NCBI GenBank assembly: GCA_024403695.1
Contig: JAKSRI010000006.1
Location: 5,488-69,487 of the forward strand
Source of the DNA: Saccharofermentans sp.
Lineage (GTDB): Bacteria; Bacillota; Clostridia; Saccharofermentanales; Saccharofermentanaceae
Direction of reading: 5' to 3'
Length of the DNA stretch: 64,000 nucleotides
Each line of letters opens with the position of its first letter. Position 1 is the stretch's first letter. A program made the translations under genes and the position numbers. This document shows positions 30,909-36,175 of this stretch, piece by piece. The notes under the pieces were generated by a model. It was given only the letters and a program-made list of their open reading frames with translations. It had not been told where the DNA came from and did no database searches.

Positions 30909-31247
30909 ATGGCTACAAGGTCCAATTCCAGTTCAAGACAGGCACCACAGAGAAAGAAGCCTGCAAATAGTAATTCAAACAGAACTACAACTAGGAAAAC
31001 AACAACCAGAAAACAGCCTGAACCTGTTAATGTATCCTATTTTGATGCATTCAGAAAAAGCAAATTCTTTTGGCCTCTGGCTACAATTCTTATTATTGTA
31101 GTAGGTGTACTTCTTGATATTCTTTTCGCTTGGAATAATTACGATAGATTCTTCCTTATTCTCGGAATCGAACTTATTCTGGTGGCTATAGCATGGATTG
31201 TTATGCTCCTCTTAAGTCTCGGTTCAGAAGTAATGTCTGAAGATTAA
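30909..31247 (+). CDS. Small membrane protein with a basic disordered N-terminus and two TM helices
   Basis: GGGAG SD; R/K/S/T-rich N-terminus followed by two hydrophobic segments. Confidence 0.8.
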   Translation: MATRSNSSSRQAPQRKKPANSNSNRTTTRKTTTRKQPEPVNVSYFDAFRKSKFFWPLATILIIVVGVLLDILFAWNNYDRFFLILGIELILVAIAWIVMLLLSLGSEVMSED

Positions 31248-31261
31248 TAAGGTGGTATATA

Positions 31262-33175
31262 GTGGCACTTGATGGAATAACAACAGAACTTTTATCTCAT
31301 GAATTAAATTCAACTCTCGCTAACGGACGAGTTGATAAAATATTCATGCCTGATAAACATACTGTTATCCTTCACGTAAGGGTAAATGGTTCTGTTAAGA
31401 AACTTCTTATCAGCATTAGTCCATCCGCACCTAGAATTAATATCACTAATACTACTAGAGAGAATCCAATGATGCCTCCTTCTTTTTGTATGCTTCTTCG
31501 TAAGTATCTGGCAGGATCTCGCATCATCTCCGTAACAAACCCTGGATATGAGAGAATCGTTGAAATTCACTTGTCTACAACTGACGAACTTCACGATGTT
31601 AAAGAGATGCGTCTCACAGCGGAATTAATGGGCCGTTACAGTAACCTGATTCTCATCAATCAAAGTGGAAAAATCATCGACAGCGCTATACACGTTGACT
31701 GCTCTATAAATAGAGTACGTGAAGTTATGCCTGCCAGAATTTACGATTACCCTCCAAAGCAAGACAAATTCATCCCTGAGGTTGCAATAAGACTAGTAGA
31801 AGACAATAAACTACCAATAACTGAAGCAGAGATGGGCCGCCCTATTGGGAAAGCACTTCTCGGTTCTATTATGGGTCTCTCCCCTAATGTCGCACGTCAG
31901 TTATGCATCATCGCCAACGTGGACGAACGTCAGCCAGTTAAGGCTCTGAGCGAAAACGACAAGCAGAACATTATAGATGCTGCCTCTAACCTGCTTAAGC
32001 AGATAATTTCTAGAGACATTACTCCAGGAGTATATTTCACAGAAGATGATTTACCTGGTGATTATTCTCCATTTAATCTGGTAGGATTTGCACGCAAAGA
32101 ATCTACTGATACCCTCTCGGAGGCAATCGACTTATATTACGATACTAAGGAACACAATATTGATCTCGAGAACAAGAAACAGAGACTAAGTGCAATTATC
32201 AACACTGCGCTTAACCACGCTGTGCGTAAAGCTGATATTCACCGTAATGACTACGAAGAAGGTCTTATGGCTGAAGAATATAAGAAATGCGGTGACCTTA
32301 TCTTCTCTAACTCATGGATGATTACCGACAGAGCTGAAGTTATCACTTGCGTTGATTATTATGAAGATCCCCCAAAAGACGTGAAGATTAAGTTGGATCC
32401 TGCTCTTAGTGCTACTGATAATGCACAGGAATACTATAAGAAATTTCGTAAAGCAAAGCGTAAATTCGAGTTATCAGAGAAATATCTTAAGGATGACAAA
32501 CTTGCCATTGATTATTTCCGCTCACTTAAGGCAGCTGCCTGCGCATGTAACTGTGATGATGACGTAGCTGCACTTATGCAGGAAATCAAGGACATCTCTA
32601 CAGATAAAAACGAGAACAAGAAAAAGGGACCAAAGGTTGGTAAAGCTGACCCTAACACTACTGTTGGCATCGCGAAATCCGGTAACAAGTCTTCCCGTGC
32701 TTTACGTGAAGCTGCCAAGAAAGCAAACATGAAGCAGAAAGAGATTTCGCGCAAAAGCAGCGAGAAACCACTCCCTTGTCGTCGTTACACAACAGCTGAC
32801 GGACACACTATTCTTTGTGGTCGTAATAATATTCAGAACGAAGAATTAACTTTCCGTACTGCTGACCGTAAAGACTGGTGGTTCCATGTTAAAGGACTCC
32901 CTGGAACACACGTAATACTTAAAACAAACTCTAACGAAGAAATGCCATCTGATGAGGCTATCCTCGAAGCAGCTCAGTGTGCTGCATTCTTCTCACGTGA
33001 CATCATGATTGAGGAGCATAATGCTATTGAGGGTTCGCGTGCTGGTGAGATTAAAGCTGAAATTGATTATTGCCCTGTTTCTCACGTAAAGAAAATCCCC
33101 GGCGCGAAGCCAGGGATGGTAATCTACGAAGGTTATTATTCTATAATCGTTAACGCTATAGAACCAAAATCCTAA
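31262..33175 (+). CDS. rqcH: Ribosome quality control NFACT protein RqcH/FbpA
   Basis: MALDG, ELMGRYSNLIL, NAQEYYKKFRKAK, GRNNIQNEELT, WFHVKGLPGTHV, KPGMVIY. Confidence 0.93.
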   Translation: MALDGITTELLSHELNSTLANGRVDKIFMPDKHTVILHVRVNGSVKKLLISISPSAPRINITNTTRENPMMPPSFCMLLRKYLAGSRIISVTNPGYERIVEIHLSTTDELHDVKEMRLTAELMGRYSNLILINQSGKIIDSAIHVDCSINRVREVMPARIYDYPPKQDKFIPEVAIRLVEDNKLPITEAEMGRPIGKALLGSIMGLSPNVARQLCIIANVDERQPVKALSENDKQNIIDAASNLLKQIISRDITPGVYFTEDDLPGDYSPFNLVGFARKESTDTLSEAIDLYYDTKEHNIDLENKKQRLSAIINTALNHAVRKADIHRNDYEEGLMAEEYKKCGDLIFSNSWMITDRAEVITCVDYYEDPPKDVKIKLDPALSATDNAQEYYKKFRKAKRKFELSEKYLKDDKLAIDYFRSLKAAACACNCDDDVAALMQEIKDISTDKNENKKKGPKVGKADPNTTVGIAKSGNKSSRALREAAKKANMKQKEISRKSSEKPLPCRRYTTADGHTILCGRNNIQNEELTFRTADRKDWWFHVKGLPGTHVILKTNSNEEMPSDEAILEAAQCAAFFSRDIMIEEHNAIEGSRAGEIKAEIDYCPVSHVKKIPGAKPGMVIYEGYYSIIVNAIEPKS

Positions 33176-33181
33176 TAACTA

Positions 33182-34813
33182 TTATCCTTCTTCACCGCCA
33201 CCTGGAGCAGGCTCGACTGGAGCTGGCTCTGTTGGTGCTGGCTCAGTAGGTGCAGGCTCTGTTGGTGCTGCTGTAGGAGCTGTAGTTGTAGGAGTTGTCT
33301 CTGCAGGAGCTGTTGTACGAGCTGCTGTTGGTGGAGTATTAGGTACTGTTGGCTCACCGCCTCTTGGGATAGAAGTCTGAGCTGTCTCCTGTGTTGTAGG
33401 AGTTGTTATCTCTGTCTCATACTCAGAAAGCAATGGCTTAAGGATATAACCGTTAACACCATCAATAGTTACATAGTAGAACAAGCCAGTCTCGTCTTCA
33501 CCAAGAACAGTTACAGGCTCATTTACCTTAAGCTCAGCAATAACTGCACTAGTCTGATCATTCTTCTCATATGCCTTAACGGAATTTTCAACATCAATTG
33601 CATAAAGTATATGCTGCTCTTCATAATAAGCATTAGTGTCAATATCTACAGATTCTTCTGCAACTGTCTGAACCATAGTTGGAAGTGTTGTTTCTACAGT
33701 TGAAATCCAACCCTTCTTAACCATGAACAAGTAGGAACCACCAAAACCGATTCCAATAAACAAAAGAAGAATTCCAAGAACAATTGCAACGTCGATAAGA
33801 ATTGCCTTTTTCTTGTTTGGCGCTGGTTCATCTGGAACAATGGAATCTACAGAAGAATTGCCCTTGTATGCAAATGTTGTTGTATTACCTTCGTCATCGT
33901 CCTTAGGCTCATTAAACGCTGCAAATACGTCGTCCTTAACATCATCCTTCTTAACCGGTGCAGGCTTATCTGCTGTAGCACTAGCAAGAACTGCATCACC
34001 TGGAAGAAGTAATGTAGACTCTACCTTCATGGCAACAAGTGAAAGACCATACTTAACACCGTAGTTAACAGCGGCAATGATAATCTCACGTGCCTTCTCT
34101 TCTGTAGAAATATCCTTACAGATAACCATGTTACGCATCTGCTGTGGAATAGCCTTAGAAATACCATTGCCCATGAGATAAAGCTCATCGTTATCCTTAA
34201 GCTTAATATTTACCTTCTTCTCTGGAATAAGTTCTCCATCCTGTGGCATCTTACCAAGATACTGAGTAAGAGTGTCCTTCTCTGGATGATTCTTCTCTTC
34301 TTCTGGCTTAATAGCTCCCATCTGTACATATCTGTGAGCTACAGTCTGCTCCTCTGTAAGAGCCATAATTTTCTTATCTCTATAAAGAACAGCCTTTGTA
34401 TTACCAATATGAATAACTCTTAAGATATCACCCTCAACGACCATCATTGTCATAGATGTCTTAAGTGGTGTTCCACCCTTTGCAACAATGTAGCTACAAA
34501 CCTTGGAATTAAGTGTATTAACAACCTTCTTAGAAAAATTATCAAAATCAAGAACAGGCTGCTTATTTGTCTCTTCAACGATTGCAGCTAATTCCTTATT
34601 AAGTTCAATATTGAGAATAGCAGCAAGACTATCAGGACCAACAGTAGAGAAAATCGCACAAATCTGAATTGGAGATGTAGATCTAGCTACTCTGAAAAAC
34701 TCAGAAACAAATTCTGGCTCTGTTCTGTATAAACTATGAAAAAACACATTTTCCTGTGGCTTTCCCTGTACCTGGTTAGTCTCAAGAAGACATGTTGAAA
34801 CTGTTTTACTCAT
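33182..34813 (-). CDS. PP2C-fold pseudophosphatase + TM + SH3b-like domain + Pro/Thr/Ala tail
   Basis: IHIGNTKAV, LTEEQT, LTQYLG and LMGNGI align to PP2C motifs; KKK-TM; SH3-like EPVTVLGE...VNGYI; TEPAP repeats. Confidence 0.75.
   Translation of the reverse strand: MSKTVSTCLLETNQVQGKPQENVFFHSLYRTEPEFVSEFFRVARSTSPIQICAIFSTVGPDSLAAILNIELNKELAAIVEETNKQPVLDFDNFSKKVVNTLNSKVCSYIVAKGGTPLKTSMTMMVVEGDILRVIHIGNTKAVLYRDKKIMALTEEQTVAHRYVQMGAIKPEEEKNHPEKDTLTQYLGKMPQDGELIPEKKVNIKLKDNDELYLMGNGISKAIPQQMRNMVICKDISTEEKAREIIIAAVNYGVKYGLSLVAMKVESTLLLPGDAVLASATADKPAPVKKDDVKDDVFAAFNEPKDDDEGNTTTFAYKGNSSVDSIVPDEPAPNKKKAILIDVAIVLGILLLFIGIGFGGSYLFMVKKGWISTVETTLPTMVQTVAEESVDIDTNAYYEEQHILYAIDVENSVKAYEKNDQTSAVIAELKVNEPVTVLGEDETGLFYYVTIDGVNGYILKPLLSEYETEITTPTTQETAQTSIPRGGEPTVPNTPPTAARTTAPAETTPTTTAPTAAPTEPAPTEPAPTEPAPVEPAPGGGEEG
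33200..33275 (-). repeat. 15-bp-period tandem repeat encoding (T/V)EPAP units
   Basis: APTEPAPTEPAPTEPAPVEPAP at the C-terminus of 33182-34813. Confidence 0.85.
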
Positions 34814-34920
34814 AATAAATCACTCCGTCAGTTAGGTAATCTACCCAAATTAAACTAAATTATTATAACATATTTTAAGTTAACTGAAACAATATGGAAA
34901 CTATTTATCTTCACAATGAA

Positions 34921-34972: not shown

Positions 34973-36175
34973 ATGTTGAAAAAGAAAACACTTGCATTAT
35001 TTTTGTCATTTACACTTTTATTAGGTGTTACTTCTTGTAAGAAAGAAGAGGATTCTACTCCAAAAATGGTAGAAACAGTAGCAACTGTAGCTACAACAGA
35101 AACTACAGAGGCAGTTCCTGAGACTTCAGAGACTGAGCCTGCACCAGTAGAGCTTGAAGATCCACTTTACGATCCTTCCATTCCTTTTCTTGTAAACCCT
35201 ATGACAGGTGTACAGGATATGGACCCAGCTAACGAAGGTAATCGTTCTGTTGGTGTTGTAATTAATAACTGTGCAGCTGCACTTCCACAGAGAGGTGTAT
35301 CACAGGCTGATGCAATTTACGAGTATGAGACAGAGGGTGGTCAGACAAGACTTCTCGCTATGTTTGCAGATGTAAATTCCATCCCAGAGATGGGTTCCCT
35401 CAGATCAGCACGTATTGTTGCTTCTGATTTGTGCGCTAGTACAAACTCCATCTTCATCCATTACGGACGTAATGCACGAGTTCCTGATCATATCGCTAAG
35501 TATGGCATCGATCACATCGATGGTAACAACTGCTCTGCTGGCTCTTATAGTTCTAAGAACTATGAAGATGGTTACGTACCTCTTAGTGGTGGTCTTTTCT
35601 TCTGGAGAGATTCAACATGGCTTTCACAGAGAGCTCTCGAGCATACAGCTGTATCAGACGGACGTCATATCGCTGAGGGTATCGAGCATTATGGAATCGA
35701 TCTTAAGGGTGAGTCACCATTCCTCTTCAACTTTGTAGCAGATAATTCTATTGATATCGCCGAGCGTGGTGAGCCATGCAGCAAGATTAATGTATACTTC
35801 TCTGCAACTAATGATGATGCGCTCTTCACTTATGACCCTGAAACAAACCTTTACTACAAGTCACAGTATGAGGGTAAGGCTCAGATTGATGAGACAACTG
35901 GTGAGCAGATTGCTGTAACTAACGTTGTAGTTCTTTTCTGTCACGTTCTTAGAAACGCTGATGGTTATACACTTGATTACTACTTGCAGGATGGCACAGG
36001 AGCACTCTATATCAGTAATGGTAAGCTCGTTCAGTGCACTTACGAGAAGAAGAATCCTAATGATCCTATAAAGCTTTATAACCTTGATGGTGAGGAAATT
36101 GAAGTAAACCGTGGTAAGAGTTATATCTGTGCTGTTAACAGTGATAGAGTTCACCTTACTACTTGGGAAGGTTAA
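34973..36175 (+). CDS. DUF3048 family lipoprotein
   Basis: Lipobox VTSC, PQRGVSQADAIYEYETEGGQTR, GSLRSAR, TNVVVL, NRGKSYI. Confidence 0.85.
   Translation: MLKKKTLALFLSFTLLLGVTSCKKEEDSTPKMVETVATVATTETTEAVPETSETEPAPVELEDPLYDPSIPFLVNPMTGVQDMDPANEGNRSVGVVINNCAAALPQRGVSQADAIYEYETEGGQTRLLAMFADVNSIPEMGSLRSARIVASDLCASTNSIFIHYGRNARVPDHIAKYGIDHIDGNNCSAGSYSSKNYEDGYVPLSGGLFFWRDSTWLSQRALEHTAVSDGRHIAEGIEHYGIDLKGESPFLFNFVADNSIDIAERGEPCSKINVYFSATNDDALFTYDPETNLYYKSQYEGKAQIDETTGEQIAVTNVVVLFCHVLRNADGYTLDYYLQDGTGALYISNGKLVQCTYEKKNPNDPIKLYNLDGEEIEVNRGKSYICAVNSDRVHLTTWEG

What the first reader, a model, noticed from the sequence alone, without database searches (positions are those of the whole stretch)
33182..34813. 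Transmembrane pseudophosphatase: dead PP2C inside, SH3b-like domain and Pro-rich stalk outside
Seen: the N-terminal approx. 265 aa follow PP2C motif order, but every metal-binding Asp is replaced. NED reads QEN, ADGMGG reads FSTVG, VGDSR reads IGNTK, EDHS reads EEQT, SDG reads GNG, and DNIT reads YGLS. An acidic linker, a KKK-preceded TM, a Thr-rich spacer, an SH3-like domain (approx. 33430-33590) and TEPAP repeats follow. Known: PP2C catalysis needs those Asp residues, and SH3b domains bind peptidoglycan. Inference: an apparently undescribed one-component envelope sensor. It could bind or shield phospho-Ser/Thr proteins, for example PrkC/Stp substrates, rather than dephosphorylate them. Loss of all the acidic ligands in an intact ORF suggests selection for a non-catalytic role.
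Basis: partly seen in the sequence, partly recalled or inferred. Interest (0 to 1): 0.7.

Follow-up and report, generated by a model that had tools for sequence, protein, structure and literature searches.

The report
Wall-tethered dead PP2C membrane protein
This gene encodes a membrane protein whose inner half has the shape of a PP2C protein phosphatase but has lost its catalytic metal-binding residues, and whose outer half carries a cell-wall-binding SH3 domain. It is a single-copy core gene of one family of rumen and gut Clostridia, and it descends from an active phosphatase that is normally encoded right behind a cell-wall polymer ligase (LCP).

Summary
ORF 33182-34813 (-) encodes 543 aa in this order:
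- a cytoplasmic PP2C-fold domain (Foldseek TM 0.86 to Stp1, 0.85 to PstP)
- an acidic disordered linker
- one TM helix
- an SH3b domain
- a Pro/Thr tail with TEPAP repeats

All four direct metal-ligand Asp are replaced (S56, N138, N216, Y255). The phosphate-binding Arg is Q16, and the second-shell Glu-Asp reads Q20-E21. Among 157 non-redundant relatives, one carries a single Asp at one of these sites.

The dead domain is the most constrained part of the protein (dN/dS 0.03). The gene is single-copy in 84 of 85 high-quality genomes of the host family and absent from sister families.

New here:
- Synteny, reciprocal best hits and a tree show it is the ortholog of an active, tail-anchored PP2C that sister families encode directly behind an LCP (LytR-CpsA-Psr) gene.
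- 73% of pseudo-family loci keep that LCP. The window's lineage lost it.
- A "half-dead" LCP-coupled form exists in another sister family.

Best reading: a non-catalytic, wall-tethered docking or regulatory protein of envelope biogenesis. No paper found in five full-text searches describes the family.

The parts
33182..34813 (-). Complete CDS, 543 aa plus stop: pseudo-PP2C, linker, TM, SH3b, Pro/Thr tail
   Evidence: The N-terminus MSKTVSTC..ETN is invariant across the family, so the start codon is right.
34010..34813 (-). Cytoplasmic PP2C-fold domain (residues 1-268). Catalytic residues are replaced: Q16, Q20, E21, S56, N138, N216, Y255, G256.
   Evidence: Foldseek TM 0.86 to 2pk0 and 0.85 to 1txo. 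Motif mapping. 157 relatives compared. dN/dS 0.031.
34238..34366 (-). Flap subdomain (residues 150-192, TEEQTVAHRYVQMGAI..HPE..LTQYLGKMPQDG). It is the region most similar to the active orthologs.
   Evidence: 40% identity to active LCP-type PP2Cs, against 15-23% in the other regions.
33989..34021 (-). Conserved post-domain motif ESTLLLPGDAV (residues 265-275)
   Evidence: E265, S266, T267, L270, P271, G272, D273 and A274 are at least 90% conserved in 157 sequences. Function unknown.
33815..33988 (-). Acidic, disordered cytoplasmic linker (residues 276-333), ending in KKK
   Evidence: pLDDT below 40. Length and sequence vary among relatives. dN/dS 0.55.
33716..33814 (-). Single transmembrane helix (residues 334-366)
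   Evidence: AF2 predicts a helix at 334-366. The hydrophobic stretch is AILIDVAIVLGILLLFIGIGFGGSYLFMV.
33428..33613 (-). Extracellular SH3b domain (residues 401-462)
   Evidence: Pfam SH3_3 E 3.3e-6, above the cut-off. Found in 26 of 26 relatives. PDB 2kt8 and 2kyb hit by sequence. Foldseek hits to phage SH3b domains, e.g. TM 0.81, rmsd 1.9.
33185..33427 (-). Extracellular Thr/Pro/Glu/Ala-rich low-complexity tail (residues 463-543), with TEPAP repeats at 33218-33270
   Evidence: TRF period 15, 3.5 copies. pLDDT below 45. No LPXTG motif. The DPT..DPTPxP motif that follows SH3b in most relatives is absent here.
34816..34900 (-). Likely promoter and RBS: TTTCCA-17-TAAAAT, TGTTATAAT, GGAG 8 nt before the ATG
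   Evidence: These are consensus matches only.
34973..36175 (+). Divergent neighbour: DUF3048 lipoprotein, a recurrent neighbour of the family
   Evidence: Pfam DUF3048 plus DUF3048_C. Present near the gene in 40 of 80 related loci and near the active ortholog in a sister family.
33095..33117 (-). Terminator-like hairpin 65 nt past the stop codon, inside the 3' end of the convergent rqcH gene
   Evidence: Pattern match only.

Best explanation
Shown:
- The protein is a type II (N-in, C-out) single-pass membrane protein.
- Its cytoplasmic domain keeps the PP2C fold but cannot bind the catalytic Mn/Mg ions.
- Its outer part is a cell-wall-binding SH3b domain on a Pro/Thr-rich tail.
- It is the ortholog, fixed in one Clostridia family, of an active tail-anchored PP2C that sister families encode immediately downstream of an LCP (LytR-CpsA-Psr) glycopolymer ligase gene, often overlapping it.
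- In the family's ancestor the phosphatase lost catalysis after a burst of change, then froze under strong purifying selection and gained the SH3b ectodomain.

Inferred mechanism:
- It works as a non-catalytic docking or regulatory subunit of envelope biogenesis.
- The SH3b domain ties it to peptidoglycan.
- The dead PP2C domain still binds the ancestral cytoplasmic partner through its conserved flap and remodelled but invariant pocket. That partner would be a phosphoprotein or Ser/Thr kinase of the cell-wall signalling network. The domain holds or sequesters it at the membrane instead of dephosphorylating it.
- In most relatives an extracellular DPT..DPTPxP motif and the co-translated LCP add a link to attachment of wall glycopolymers.
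- The window's lineage has lost both the LCP and that motif but keeps the core protein.
For: Fold and dead site:
- Foldseek matches to Stp1 and PstP; motif mapping.
- Among 157 non-redundant relatives, one carries a single Asp at one ligand position (P0141, D138). Positions 138 and 216 are mostly hydrophobic.

Selection:
- dN/dS is 0.031 on the dead domain against 0.55 on the linker.
- 113 of about 275 positions are at least 90% conserved.
- The gene is single-copy in 84 of 85 high-quality genomes and in 8 of 8 genera of the family. It is absent from other families of the order.

Orthology to an active LCP-coupled PP2C:
- A sister-family genome has DUF3048...MurC/LCP, then an active tail-anchored PP2C with a 4-nt overlap.
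- 26 of 30 sister-family orthologous loci have an LCP directly upstream, and the best hits in the own family are the pseudo loci.
- The own genome has no other ortholog.
- In the careful tree, pseudo plus half-dead (90/82) joins the LCP-type clade (91/84). The AU test does not reject this grouping.

LCP link inside the family:
- 54 of 74 loci have an LCP directly upstream. This includes a member only 33% identical.
- The ecto motif tracks LCP presence: 40/10 with LCP against 1/18 without.

Partner surface and ectodomain:
- The flap is 40% identical to the active orthologs, against 21% overall.
Against:
- The partner is unknown. The gene is not linked to prkC/stp or to any kinase in this genome.
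- Loss of the Arg and the metals removes the usual way a PP2C holds a phosphate, so phospho-dependent binding is not assured.
- The LCP was lost at least 3-5 times, including in the window's lineage, with no ortholog elsewhere. The LCP therefore cannot be the sole or essential partner.
- The motif-LCP association rests on only 3 phylogenetically independent contrasts and is not significant.
- Tree support for the sister relations is moderate (90/82 and 91/84, not starred), and the pseudo clade sits on a very long stem.
Confidence: 0.55

Rival explanations
1. Phospho-substrate shield of the PrkC/Stp pathway. The dead PP2C binds phospho-Ser/Thr on substrates of the PASTA kinase and protects them from Stp.
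For: - The genome has a canonical rlmN-stp-kinase locus and four Hanks kinases.
- The flap is preferentially conserved.
- Substrate trapping is a known pseudophosphatase mode (general knowledge of pseudophosphatases).
Against: - The Arg and all metal ligands that hold the phosphate in PP2Cs are gone.
- No genomic linkage to prkC/stp.
- The ancestral active enzyme belongs to a different PP2C lineage (LCP-coupled, NNEDN type) from Stp.
Confidence: 0.2
2. Ligand receptor. The remodelled but invariant pocket (Q20, E21, N22, S56, G59, D61, T139, K140, G256) binds a small molecule, such as a nucleotide or a cell-wall precursor head group. The protein would report precursor supply to the outside machinery, or the reverse.
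For: Former active-site positions that are not hydrophobic are invariant across 157 sequences, down to 32% identity. That is unusual for a pure scaffold. The gene context is envelope biosynthesis: LCP, MurC and DUF3048.
Against: No ligand-binding signature is known for this pocket. Two of the pocket positions drift among hydrophobic residues. Nothing was tested.
Confidence: 0.13
3. Residual or new catalysis. The domain is still an enzyme that uses other residues, for example invariant S56/K140/E21, perhaps metal-independent.
For: Invariant Ser, Lys and Glu sit in the old active site. Very strong constraint.
Against: No precedent for metal-free catalysis in the PP2C fold. Positions 138 and 216 are Ile/Val/Leu in most members. 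Pfam PP2C and the NCBIfam cut-offs are not reached.
Confidence: 0.07
4. Mainly an extracellular wall protein (spacer or adhesin, through SH3b and the Pro/Thr tail), with the cytoplasmic domain an inert remnant.
For: An SH3b domain plus a long PT-rich tail is typical of wall-associated proteins.
Against: The cytoplasmic domain is by far the most conserved part (dN/dS 0.03; 62-86% identity among cluster representatives of the closest clade, falling to about 32% in the most distant members). The ectodomain and tail vary freely.
Confidence: 0.05

Closest known systems
PstP of Mycobacterium tuberculosis (membrane-anchored PP2C; PDB 1txo, 2cm1)
   Same: Cytoplasmic PP2C fold (TM 0.85), a juxtamembrane linker, one TM helix, an extracellular C-terminal part, and a cell-wall regulatory context.
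   Different: PstP is catalytically active with all Asp ligands. It sits in an fhaA-fhaB-pstP-rodA-pbpA-pknA-pknB operon and has no SH3b. Here the ligands are lost, SH3b is present, and the partners are LCP and DUF3048.
Stp1/IreP/PrpC-type bacterial PP2C phosphatases (e.g. S. agalactiae Stp1, PDB 2pk0)
   Same: Best sequence and structure match. The flap sequence is similar.
   Different: They are soluble, active and paired with a PASTA kinase. The window protein scores 64 bits against the 230-bit cut-off and lacks the catalytic residues. The genome has its own canonical Stp elsewhere.
PP2C-fold pseudophosphatases: the RssB C-terminal domain (E. coli; PMC6546054), TAB1, PHLPP2 (PMC12002173)
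   Same: PP2C fold with a degenerate metal site, acting by protein binding rather than catalysis.
   Different: Those are soluble, with other domain partners (receiver domain; TAK1/p38 binding; PH-LRR), and belong to unrelated lineages. None is membrane-anchored with a peptidoglycan-binding ectodomain or linked to LCP.
LCP-coupled tail-anchored PP2C of sister Clostridia families (e.g. P0154, P0156, G066 locus; apparently uncharacterised)
   Same: Orthologous position (DUF3048, LCP, MurC neighbourhood), a sister relation in the tree, shared flap, and membrane anchoring.
   Different: Those keep NNEDN, DGMGGE, GDSR, SDG and KDN, and have at most about 30 residues outside the membrane. The window family lost the ligands and gained SH3b plus a tail.
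SH3b cell-wall-binding domains of endolysins and NlpC/P60 hydrolases (Pfam SH3_3)
   Same: Same fold and Pfam family.
   Different: Here it is attached to a transmembrane pseudoenzyme, not to a secreted hydrolase. Its ligand is untested.

Membership tests
PP2C/PPM protein phosphatases (active enzymes) | PP2C alpha-beta sandwich fold | tested here: met
   Foldseek E 1.8e-14, TM 0.86 to 2pk0 and TM 0.85 to 1txo. AF2 N-domain pLDDT about 80-90.
PP2C/PPM protein phosphatases (active enzymes) | Four Asp that bind the M1/M2/M3 metals (DGMGG, GDSR, SDG, DN motifs) | tested here: not met
   S56, N138, N216 and Y255 in the window. 0 of 157 relatives have Asp at positions 56, 216 or 255, and 1 of 157 has it at 138.
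PP2C/PPM protein phosphatases (active enzymes) | Phosphate-binding Arg and the Glu-Asp pair of motif I (RxxNED) | tested here: not met
   R becomes Q16 (Q/P/A in the family), E becomes Q20 and D becomes E21.
PP2C/PPM protein phosphatases (active enzymes) | Curated model scores (Pfam PP2C gathering score; NCBIfam Stp1_PP2C_phos cut-off) | tested here: not met
   No Pfam PP2C hit for the window protein, and 3 of 26 relatives hit weakly at E about 1e-3. NCBIfam gives 64 bits against a 230-bit cut-off.
PP2C/PPM protein phosphatases (active enzymes) | Mn2+/Mg2+-dependent phosphatase activity | not testable with these tools
   Needs an enzyme assay.
Pseudophosphatase (PP2C-fold pseudoenzyme) | Homologous to an active enzyme family, catalytic residues lost, yet maintained by purifying selection | tested here: met
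   dN/dS 0.031. Core single-copy gene in 84 of 85 genomes. Monophyletic clade nested beside active orthologs.
SH3b (Pfam SH3_3, PF08239) | Profile match above the gathering score, and an SH3-like beta-barrel | tested here: met
   27.6 bits against a 27-bit cut-off. 26 of 26 relatives match, best E 3e-9. Foldseek matches to phage SH3b domains.
SH3b (Pfam SH3_3, PF08239) | Binds peptidoglycan | not testable with these tools
   Needs a sacculus pull-down.
PstP-like membrane PP2C module | Operon with FHA proteins, RodA/FtsW, a PBP and PknA/B | tested here: not met
   The window neighbours are rqcH (convergent) and DUF3048 (divergent). Relatives have LCP upstream and aspartokinase downstream.
LCP-coupled membrane PP2C operon (defined here) | LytR_cpsA_psr gene directly upstream on the same strand | tested here: not met
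   Not met for the window: no LCP at the locus and no ortholog in the genome (best 26-28% identity). Met for 54 of 74 family loci and 26 of 30 sister-family loci.

The most novel reading that the evidence does not exclude
The LCP-coupled membrane PP2C is an unrecognised regulatory module of Clostridia that links Ser/Thr phospho-signalling to the ligation of wall glycopolymers. In one family (Saccharofermentans and relatives) it was converted stepwise, from active to half-dead to dead. The result is a peptidoglycan-binding transmembrane pseudoenzyme receptor that transmits wall status to a cytoplasmic partner and docks the LCP through an extracellular DPT..DPTPxP motif.
Probability: 0.3. Interest if true: 0.75.

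Novelty: new variant of a known kind. Interest (0 to 1): 0.6.

Why it matters
Bacterial pseudoenzymes in signalling are little studied. The RssB C-terminal domain is the only bacterial PP2C-fold pseudophosphatase that came up here.

This one has several features that make it a clean case:
- It is a core, single-copy, strongly constrained gene of a whole family of abundant rumen and gut fibre-degrading Clostridia.
- It has a traceable evolutionary path from an active enzyme. An active ortholog exists in sister families and a half-dead form in another.
- It therefore offers a natural series for asking what a phosphatase fold does after it stops being a phosphatase.

It also exposes an apparently undescribed operon, LCP followed by a membrane PP2C. 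That operon ties Ser/Thr phosphatase signalling to attachment of wall teichoic-acid-like or capsular polymers.

Cultured Hungate-collection isolates carry the gene, so it can be tested.

Tried and rejected
- Pfam and NCBIfam alone under-call the N domain: Pfam finds only SH3_3, and public records name the family 'SH3 domain-containing protein'.
- A first quick tree placed the pseudo clade beside two soluble PP2Cs. One of them (P0155) sits in a type VII secretion cluster; the other's neighbours have no Pfam hits. I treat this as long-branch noise for two reasons. The constrained alternative had a higher likelihood, and the site-heterogeneous careful tree groups the clade with the LCP-coupled PP2Cs.
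- The Big_2-type membrane PP2Cs (P0149 and similar) gave the best single-sequence hits among the active enzymes. They sit in FHA operons and are not the orthologs.
- I looked for a relocated LCP ortholog in genomes that lack it at the locus and found none.
- I considered the LCP as an obligatory partner and rejected that, because it was lost repeatedly while the gene stayed.
- The motif-LCP co-loss could not be made statistically firm: only 3 independent contrasts exist.
- Five full-text literature searches found nothing on this family or on LCP-PP2C operons. A 2026 preprint mentions a different, 136-aa pseudophosphatase domain joined to an FHA domain in Actinobacteria.
- Model coordinates cannot be read in the Python box, so the conserved residues were not mapped onto the model's surface.
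Full report
**1. What is there**

The window holds an intact 543-codon ORF at 33182..34813 on the minus strand. A GGAG sits 8 nt before the ATG, and a TG-extended -10 (TGTTATAAT) lies about 50 nt upstream.

The gene is convergent with rqcH (NFACT_N/NFACT-R, 31262..33175). It is divergent from a DUF3048 lipoprotein gene (34973..36175).

Pfam sees only SH3_3 (residues 415-462, 27.6 bits against a 27-bit cut-off). NCBIfam's Stp1/IreP PP2C model hits residues 78-259 at E 1.4e-17, but with 64 bits against a 230-bit cut-off. phmmer against PDB finds Stp1 (2pk0), PstP (1txo, 2cm1), tPphA and S. aureus Stp1, plus two SH3b NMR structures (2kt8, 2kyb) for the C-terminal part.

**2. Fold**

An AlphaFold2 model built on 26 relatives gives these regions:

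| Region | Residues | Model result |
|---|---|---|
| N domain | about 1-268 | confident, pLDDT about 80-90 |
| Linker | 269-333 | disordered |
| TM helix | 334-366 | one long helix |
| Small beta domain | 401-458 | pLDDT about 80 |
| Tail | after 458 | disordered |

Foldseek against PDB returns bacterial PP2C phosphatases over their whole length: Stp1 E 1.8e-14 with TM 0.86, and PstP with TM 0.85. Against viral predicted structures, the small beta domain matches phage SH3/SH3b wall-binding domains, for example TM 0.81 and rmsd 1.9 Å over 70 columns. SH3_3 is found in 26 of 26 aligned relatives. The TEPAP repeats are a 15-nt x 3.5 tandem array at 33218-33270.

The N-terminal 333 residues have no signal peptide, and a KKK run precedes the TM helix. 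The PP2C-like domain is therefore cytoplasmic and the SH3b domain is outside. This topology is an inference.

**3. The dead site**

I aligned the domain with active relatives and with the genome's own Stp.

| Active motif | Role | Window residues |
|---|---|---|
| Arg of RxxNED | binds phosphate | Q16 |
| NNEDN | second-shell Glu-Asp | K18-P19-Q20-E21-N22 (Glu to Gln, Asp to Glu) |
| DGMGGE | bridging Asp | S56-T-V-G-P-D61 |
| GDSR | M3 ligand | G-N138-T-K140 |
| SDG | metal ligand | G-N216-G |
| GKDNVT | metal ligand | V-K-Y255-G256-L-S |

In 157 non-redundant family members, none has Asp at positions 56, 216 or 255, and one has Asp at 138. Residues Q20, E21, N22, S56, G59, D61 and G256 are essentially invariant. 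Position 138 is N, I or V; 216 is mostly L, V or I; 255 is S, Y, A, F or G. Hydrophobic residues at two ligand positions make metal binding implausible.

**4. Selection and distribution**

Against the closest relative (80% identical protein, locus L097), dN/dS differs sharply by region:

| Region | dN/dS |
|---|---|
| PP2C-like domain | 0.031 |
| Acidic linker | 0.55 |
| TM helix | 0.09 |
| Ectodomain | 0.08 |
| Tail | 0.20 |

Of about 275 N-domain positions, 113 are at least 90% conserved across the 157 sequences.

A whole-genome search finds exactly one copy in 129 of 143 genomes of the host's GTDB family. That is 84 of 85 high-quality genomes and all 8 genera. No copy is found in the other families of the order.

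Public names are 'SH3 domain-containing protein' or 'hypothetical protein', and one JGI record calls it 'PrpC'. Record titles place the family in Saccharofermentans and 'Mageeibacillus'/'Ruminococcaceae bacterium' genomes from rumen and gut. These include the cultured Hungate strains KHP2, AB4001, YRB3002 and YAD3003.

**5. Where it came from**

In 54 of 74 related species loci with enough upstream sequence, a LytR_cpsA_psr (LCP) gene lies directly upstream on the same strand, at most 34 nt away. A DUF3048 lipoprotein gene is often divergent from it, and an aspartokinase gene is convergent downstream. A member only 33% identical keeps DUF3048(-)/LCP(+), with a 4-nt overlap into the gene.

In a sister family, the same neighbourhood (DUF3048 ... 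MurC / LCP) is followed by a fully active, tail-anchored PP2C. It carries NNEDN, DGMGGE, IGDSR, CTDG and GGKDN, again with a 4-nt overlap. Other active relatives show LCP followed by PP2C, with MurC, two Prs genes, EngB and ComEC nearby. ComEC is also near the gene in the window.

I then searched the order with that active protein:
- 26 of 30 retrieved loci have an LCP directly upstream.
- Within the host family, the best hits are the pseudo-genes themselves.

The window's genome has four other PP2Cs, and none is of this type:
- Stp, next to rlmN and a kinase
- an active TM-PP2C on contig 18
- an N-anchored PP2C on contig 10
- a PP2C in a vWA-containing cluster on contig 6

A site-heterogeneous ML tree makes the pseudo family monophyletic (100/100) on a very long stem (1.98 substitutions per site). 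Its sister (90/82) is a 'half-dead' LCP-coupled form from another sister family (P0151/L134). That form keeps the bridging Asp and the DN motif but has IGNSR and CNG, a mid-protein TM and a Thr/Pro-rich outer tail. Both together join the active tail-anchored LCP-type clade (91/84).

An earlier quick tree misplaced the clade. The constrained grouping had a higher likelihood, with p-AU 0.91.

I conclude that the gene is the ortholog of an LCP-coupled membrane phosphatase. It lost catalysis and gained an SH3b ectodomain in the ancestor of this family. The stepwise order of events is an inference with moderate support.

**6. The LCP link is frequent but not obligatory**

The window and its 80%-identical relative have DUF3048 but no LCP. 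Genomes without an adjacent LCP have no ortholog elsewhere: the best match is 28-31% identical, against 78% where the LCP is adjacent. On the family tree, LCP adjacency changes at least 5 times.

A conserved extracellular motif follows SH3b, with consensus S-E-x-D-P-T-I-G-E-..-E-M-..-D-P-T-P-I-P. It is kept in nine of the ten most divergent members examined, which are about 32-50% identical to the window in the N domain.

| | Motif present | Motif absent |
|---|---|---|
| LCP-linked loci | 40 | 10 |
| LCP-less loci | 1 (a chance match in the tail) | 18 |

The window lacks the motif. Only three phylogenetically independent contrasts exist. None goes the opposite way, but the sign test cannot reach significance, so this is a lead and not a result. 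It suggests the motif may dock the extracellular LCP domain.

**7. How it probably works**

Shown:
- The protein has a PP2C fold without its metal ligands.
- The protein is a single-pass membrane protein with an SH3b domain, placed outside by inference from the topology argument above.
- The dead domain is under extreme constraint.
- The gene is orthologous to an LCP-coupled active PP2C.
- The flap (residues 150-192) is 40% identical to the active orthologs, against 15-23% elsewhere.

Inferred: the domain still binds whatever the ancestral phosphatase bound. That would be a phosphoprotein or kinase of envelope signalling. It now holds, sequesters or positions that partner at the membrane. SH3b meanwhile ties the protein to peptidoglycan, and in most relatives the ecto motif and the LCP connect it to glycopolymer attachment.

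Loss of the phosphate-binding Arg and the metals counts against it, as does the lack of linkage to prkC/stp. Other readings not excluded are a small-molecule receptor that uses the invariant remodelled pocket, or a new catalytic activity. An inert remnant is excluded by the selection data.

**8. Comparison and novelty**

- PstP shares the architecture (PP2C, TM, ectodomain) but is active and sits in a different operon.
- Stp1/IreP are the best matches but are soluble and active.
- The RssB C-terminal domain (PMC6546054), TAB1 and PHLPP2 (PMC12002173) are PP2C-fold pseudophosphatases, but they are soluble and unrelated in context.

None of the five full-text searches that ran turned up a paper on this family or on LCP-PP2C operons. 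Two earlier notes of this scan flagged the same family in other genomes, and one follow-up reached a similar 'wall-anchored pseudo-PP2C dock' reading. Those are not independent evidence.

I class it as a new variant of a known kind: a PP2C-fold pseudophosphatase with a new architecture, a new context and a traceable origin.

**9. Limits**

There is no biochemistry. The partner is unknown. Tree support for the sister relations is moderate, and the motif-LCP association is underpowered.

Noticed in passing
L134:1382-2815 (+) and protein P0151: A 'half-dead' LCP-coupled PP2C in a sister family. It keeps the bridging Asp (DGMGEGE) and LDN/RDN, but reads HFDN, IGNSR and CNG/SNS. It has a mid-protein TM helix and a Thr/Pro/Ser-rich extracellular tail, with no SH3b. 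It is sister to the fully dead family in the tree (90/82).
   Followed up: partly
proteins P0187 and P0223: Another partly degenerate membrane PP2C lineage: YDGSNGD/SDGSGAE, TKG/SNG in place of SDG, NDAT/DDAT. It has a TM helix and a Pro/Thr-rich outer tail with EPTEAP-like repeats. Degenerate membrane PP2Cs with PT-rich tails seem to arise repeatedly in Clostridia.
   Followed up: no
L001:1477-3279 (own genome, contig 18): An active 600-aa PP2C-TM-ectodomain protein with all motifs intact. A Hanks kinase gene (C18:14861-15496) lies roughly 1.6 kb downstream of its stop on the same contig. This may be a second membrane phosphatase/kinase pair.
   Followed up: no
L006:704-2550 (own genome, contig 6): A vWA-domain protein is followed, with overlapping stop and start, by a tail-anchored PP2C_2-like protein (374 aa). 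This is a different PP2C module.
   Followed up: no
L107:1-4828: A soluble PP2C (P0155) sits inside a type VII secretion cluster (FHA-FtsK/EssC, YukD, WXG100) in a metagenome contig.
   Followed up: no
window 33095-33117 (-): The only terminator-like hairpin downstream of the gene lies inside the last codons of the convergent rqcH gene. It may serve both transcripts.
   Followed up: no
window 30909-31247 (+): A 112-aa ORF just upstream of rqcH has a Lys/Arg/Thr/Ser-rich N-terminus and two hydrophobic helices. It has no Pfam match.
   Followed up: no
G105:C10:19519-20232 and L138 (G118): One genome of the host family has a PP2C-like stretch (34% identical to the active LCP-type PP2C) interrupted by 3 TGA codons. 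It may be a decayed copy. One sister-family ortholog carries an in-frame TAG.
   Followed up: no
window 34973-36175 (+) and related loci: The DUF3048 lipoprotein is a recurrent neighbour of both the dead and the active LCP-type PP2C genes across families. Its function is unknown, and only two papers in the library mention it, both in passing.
   Followed up: partly
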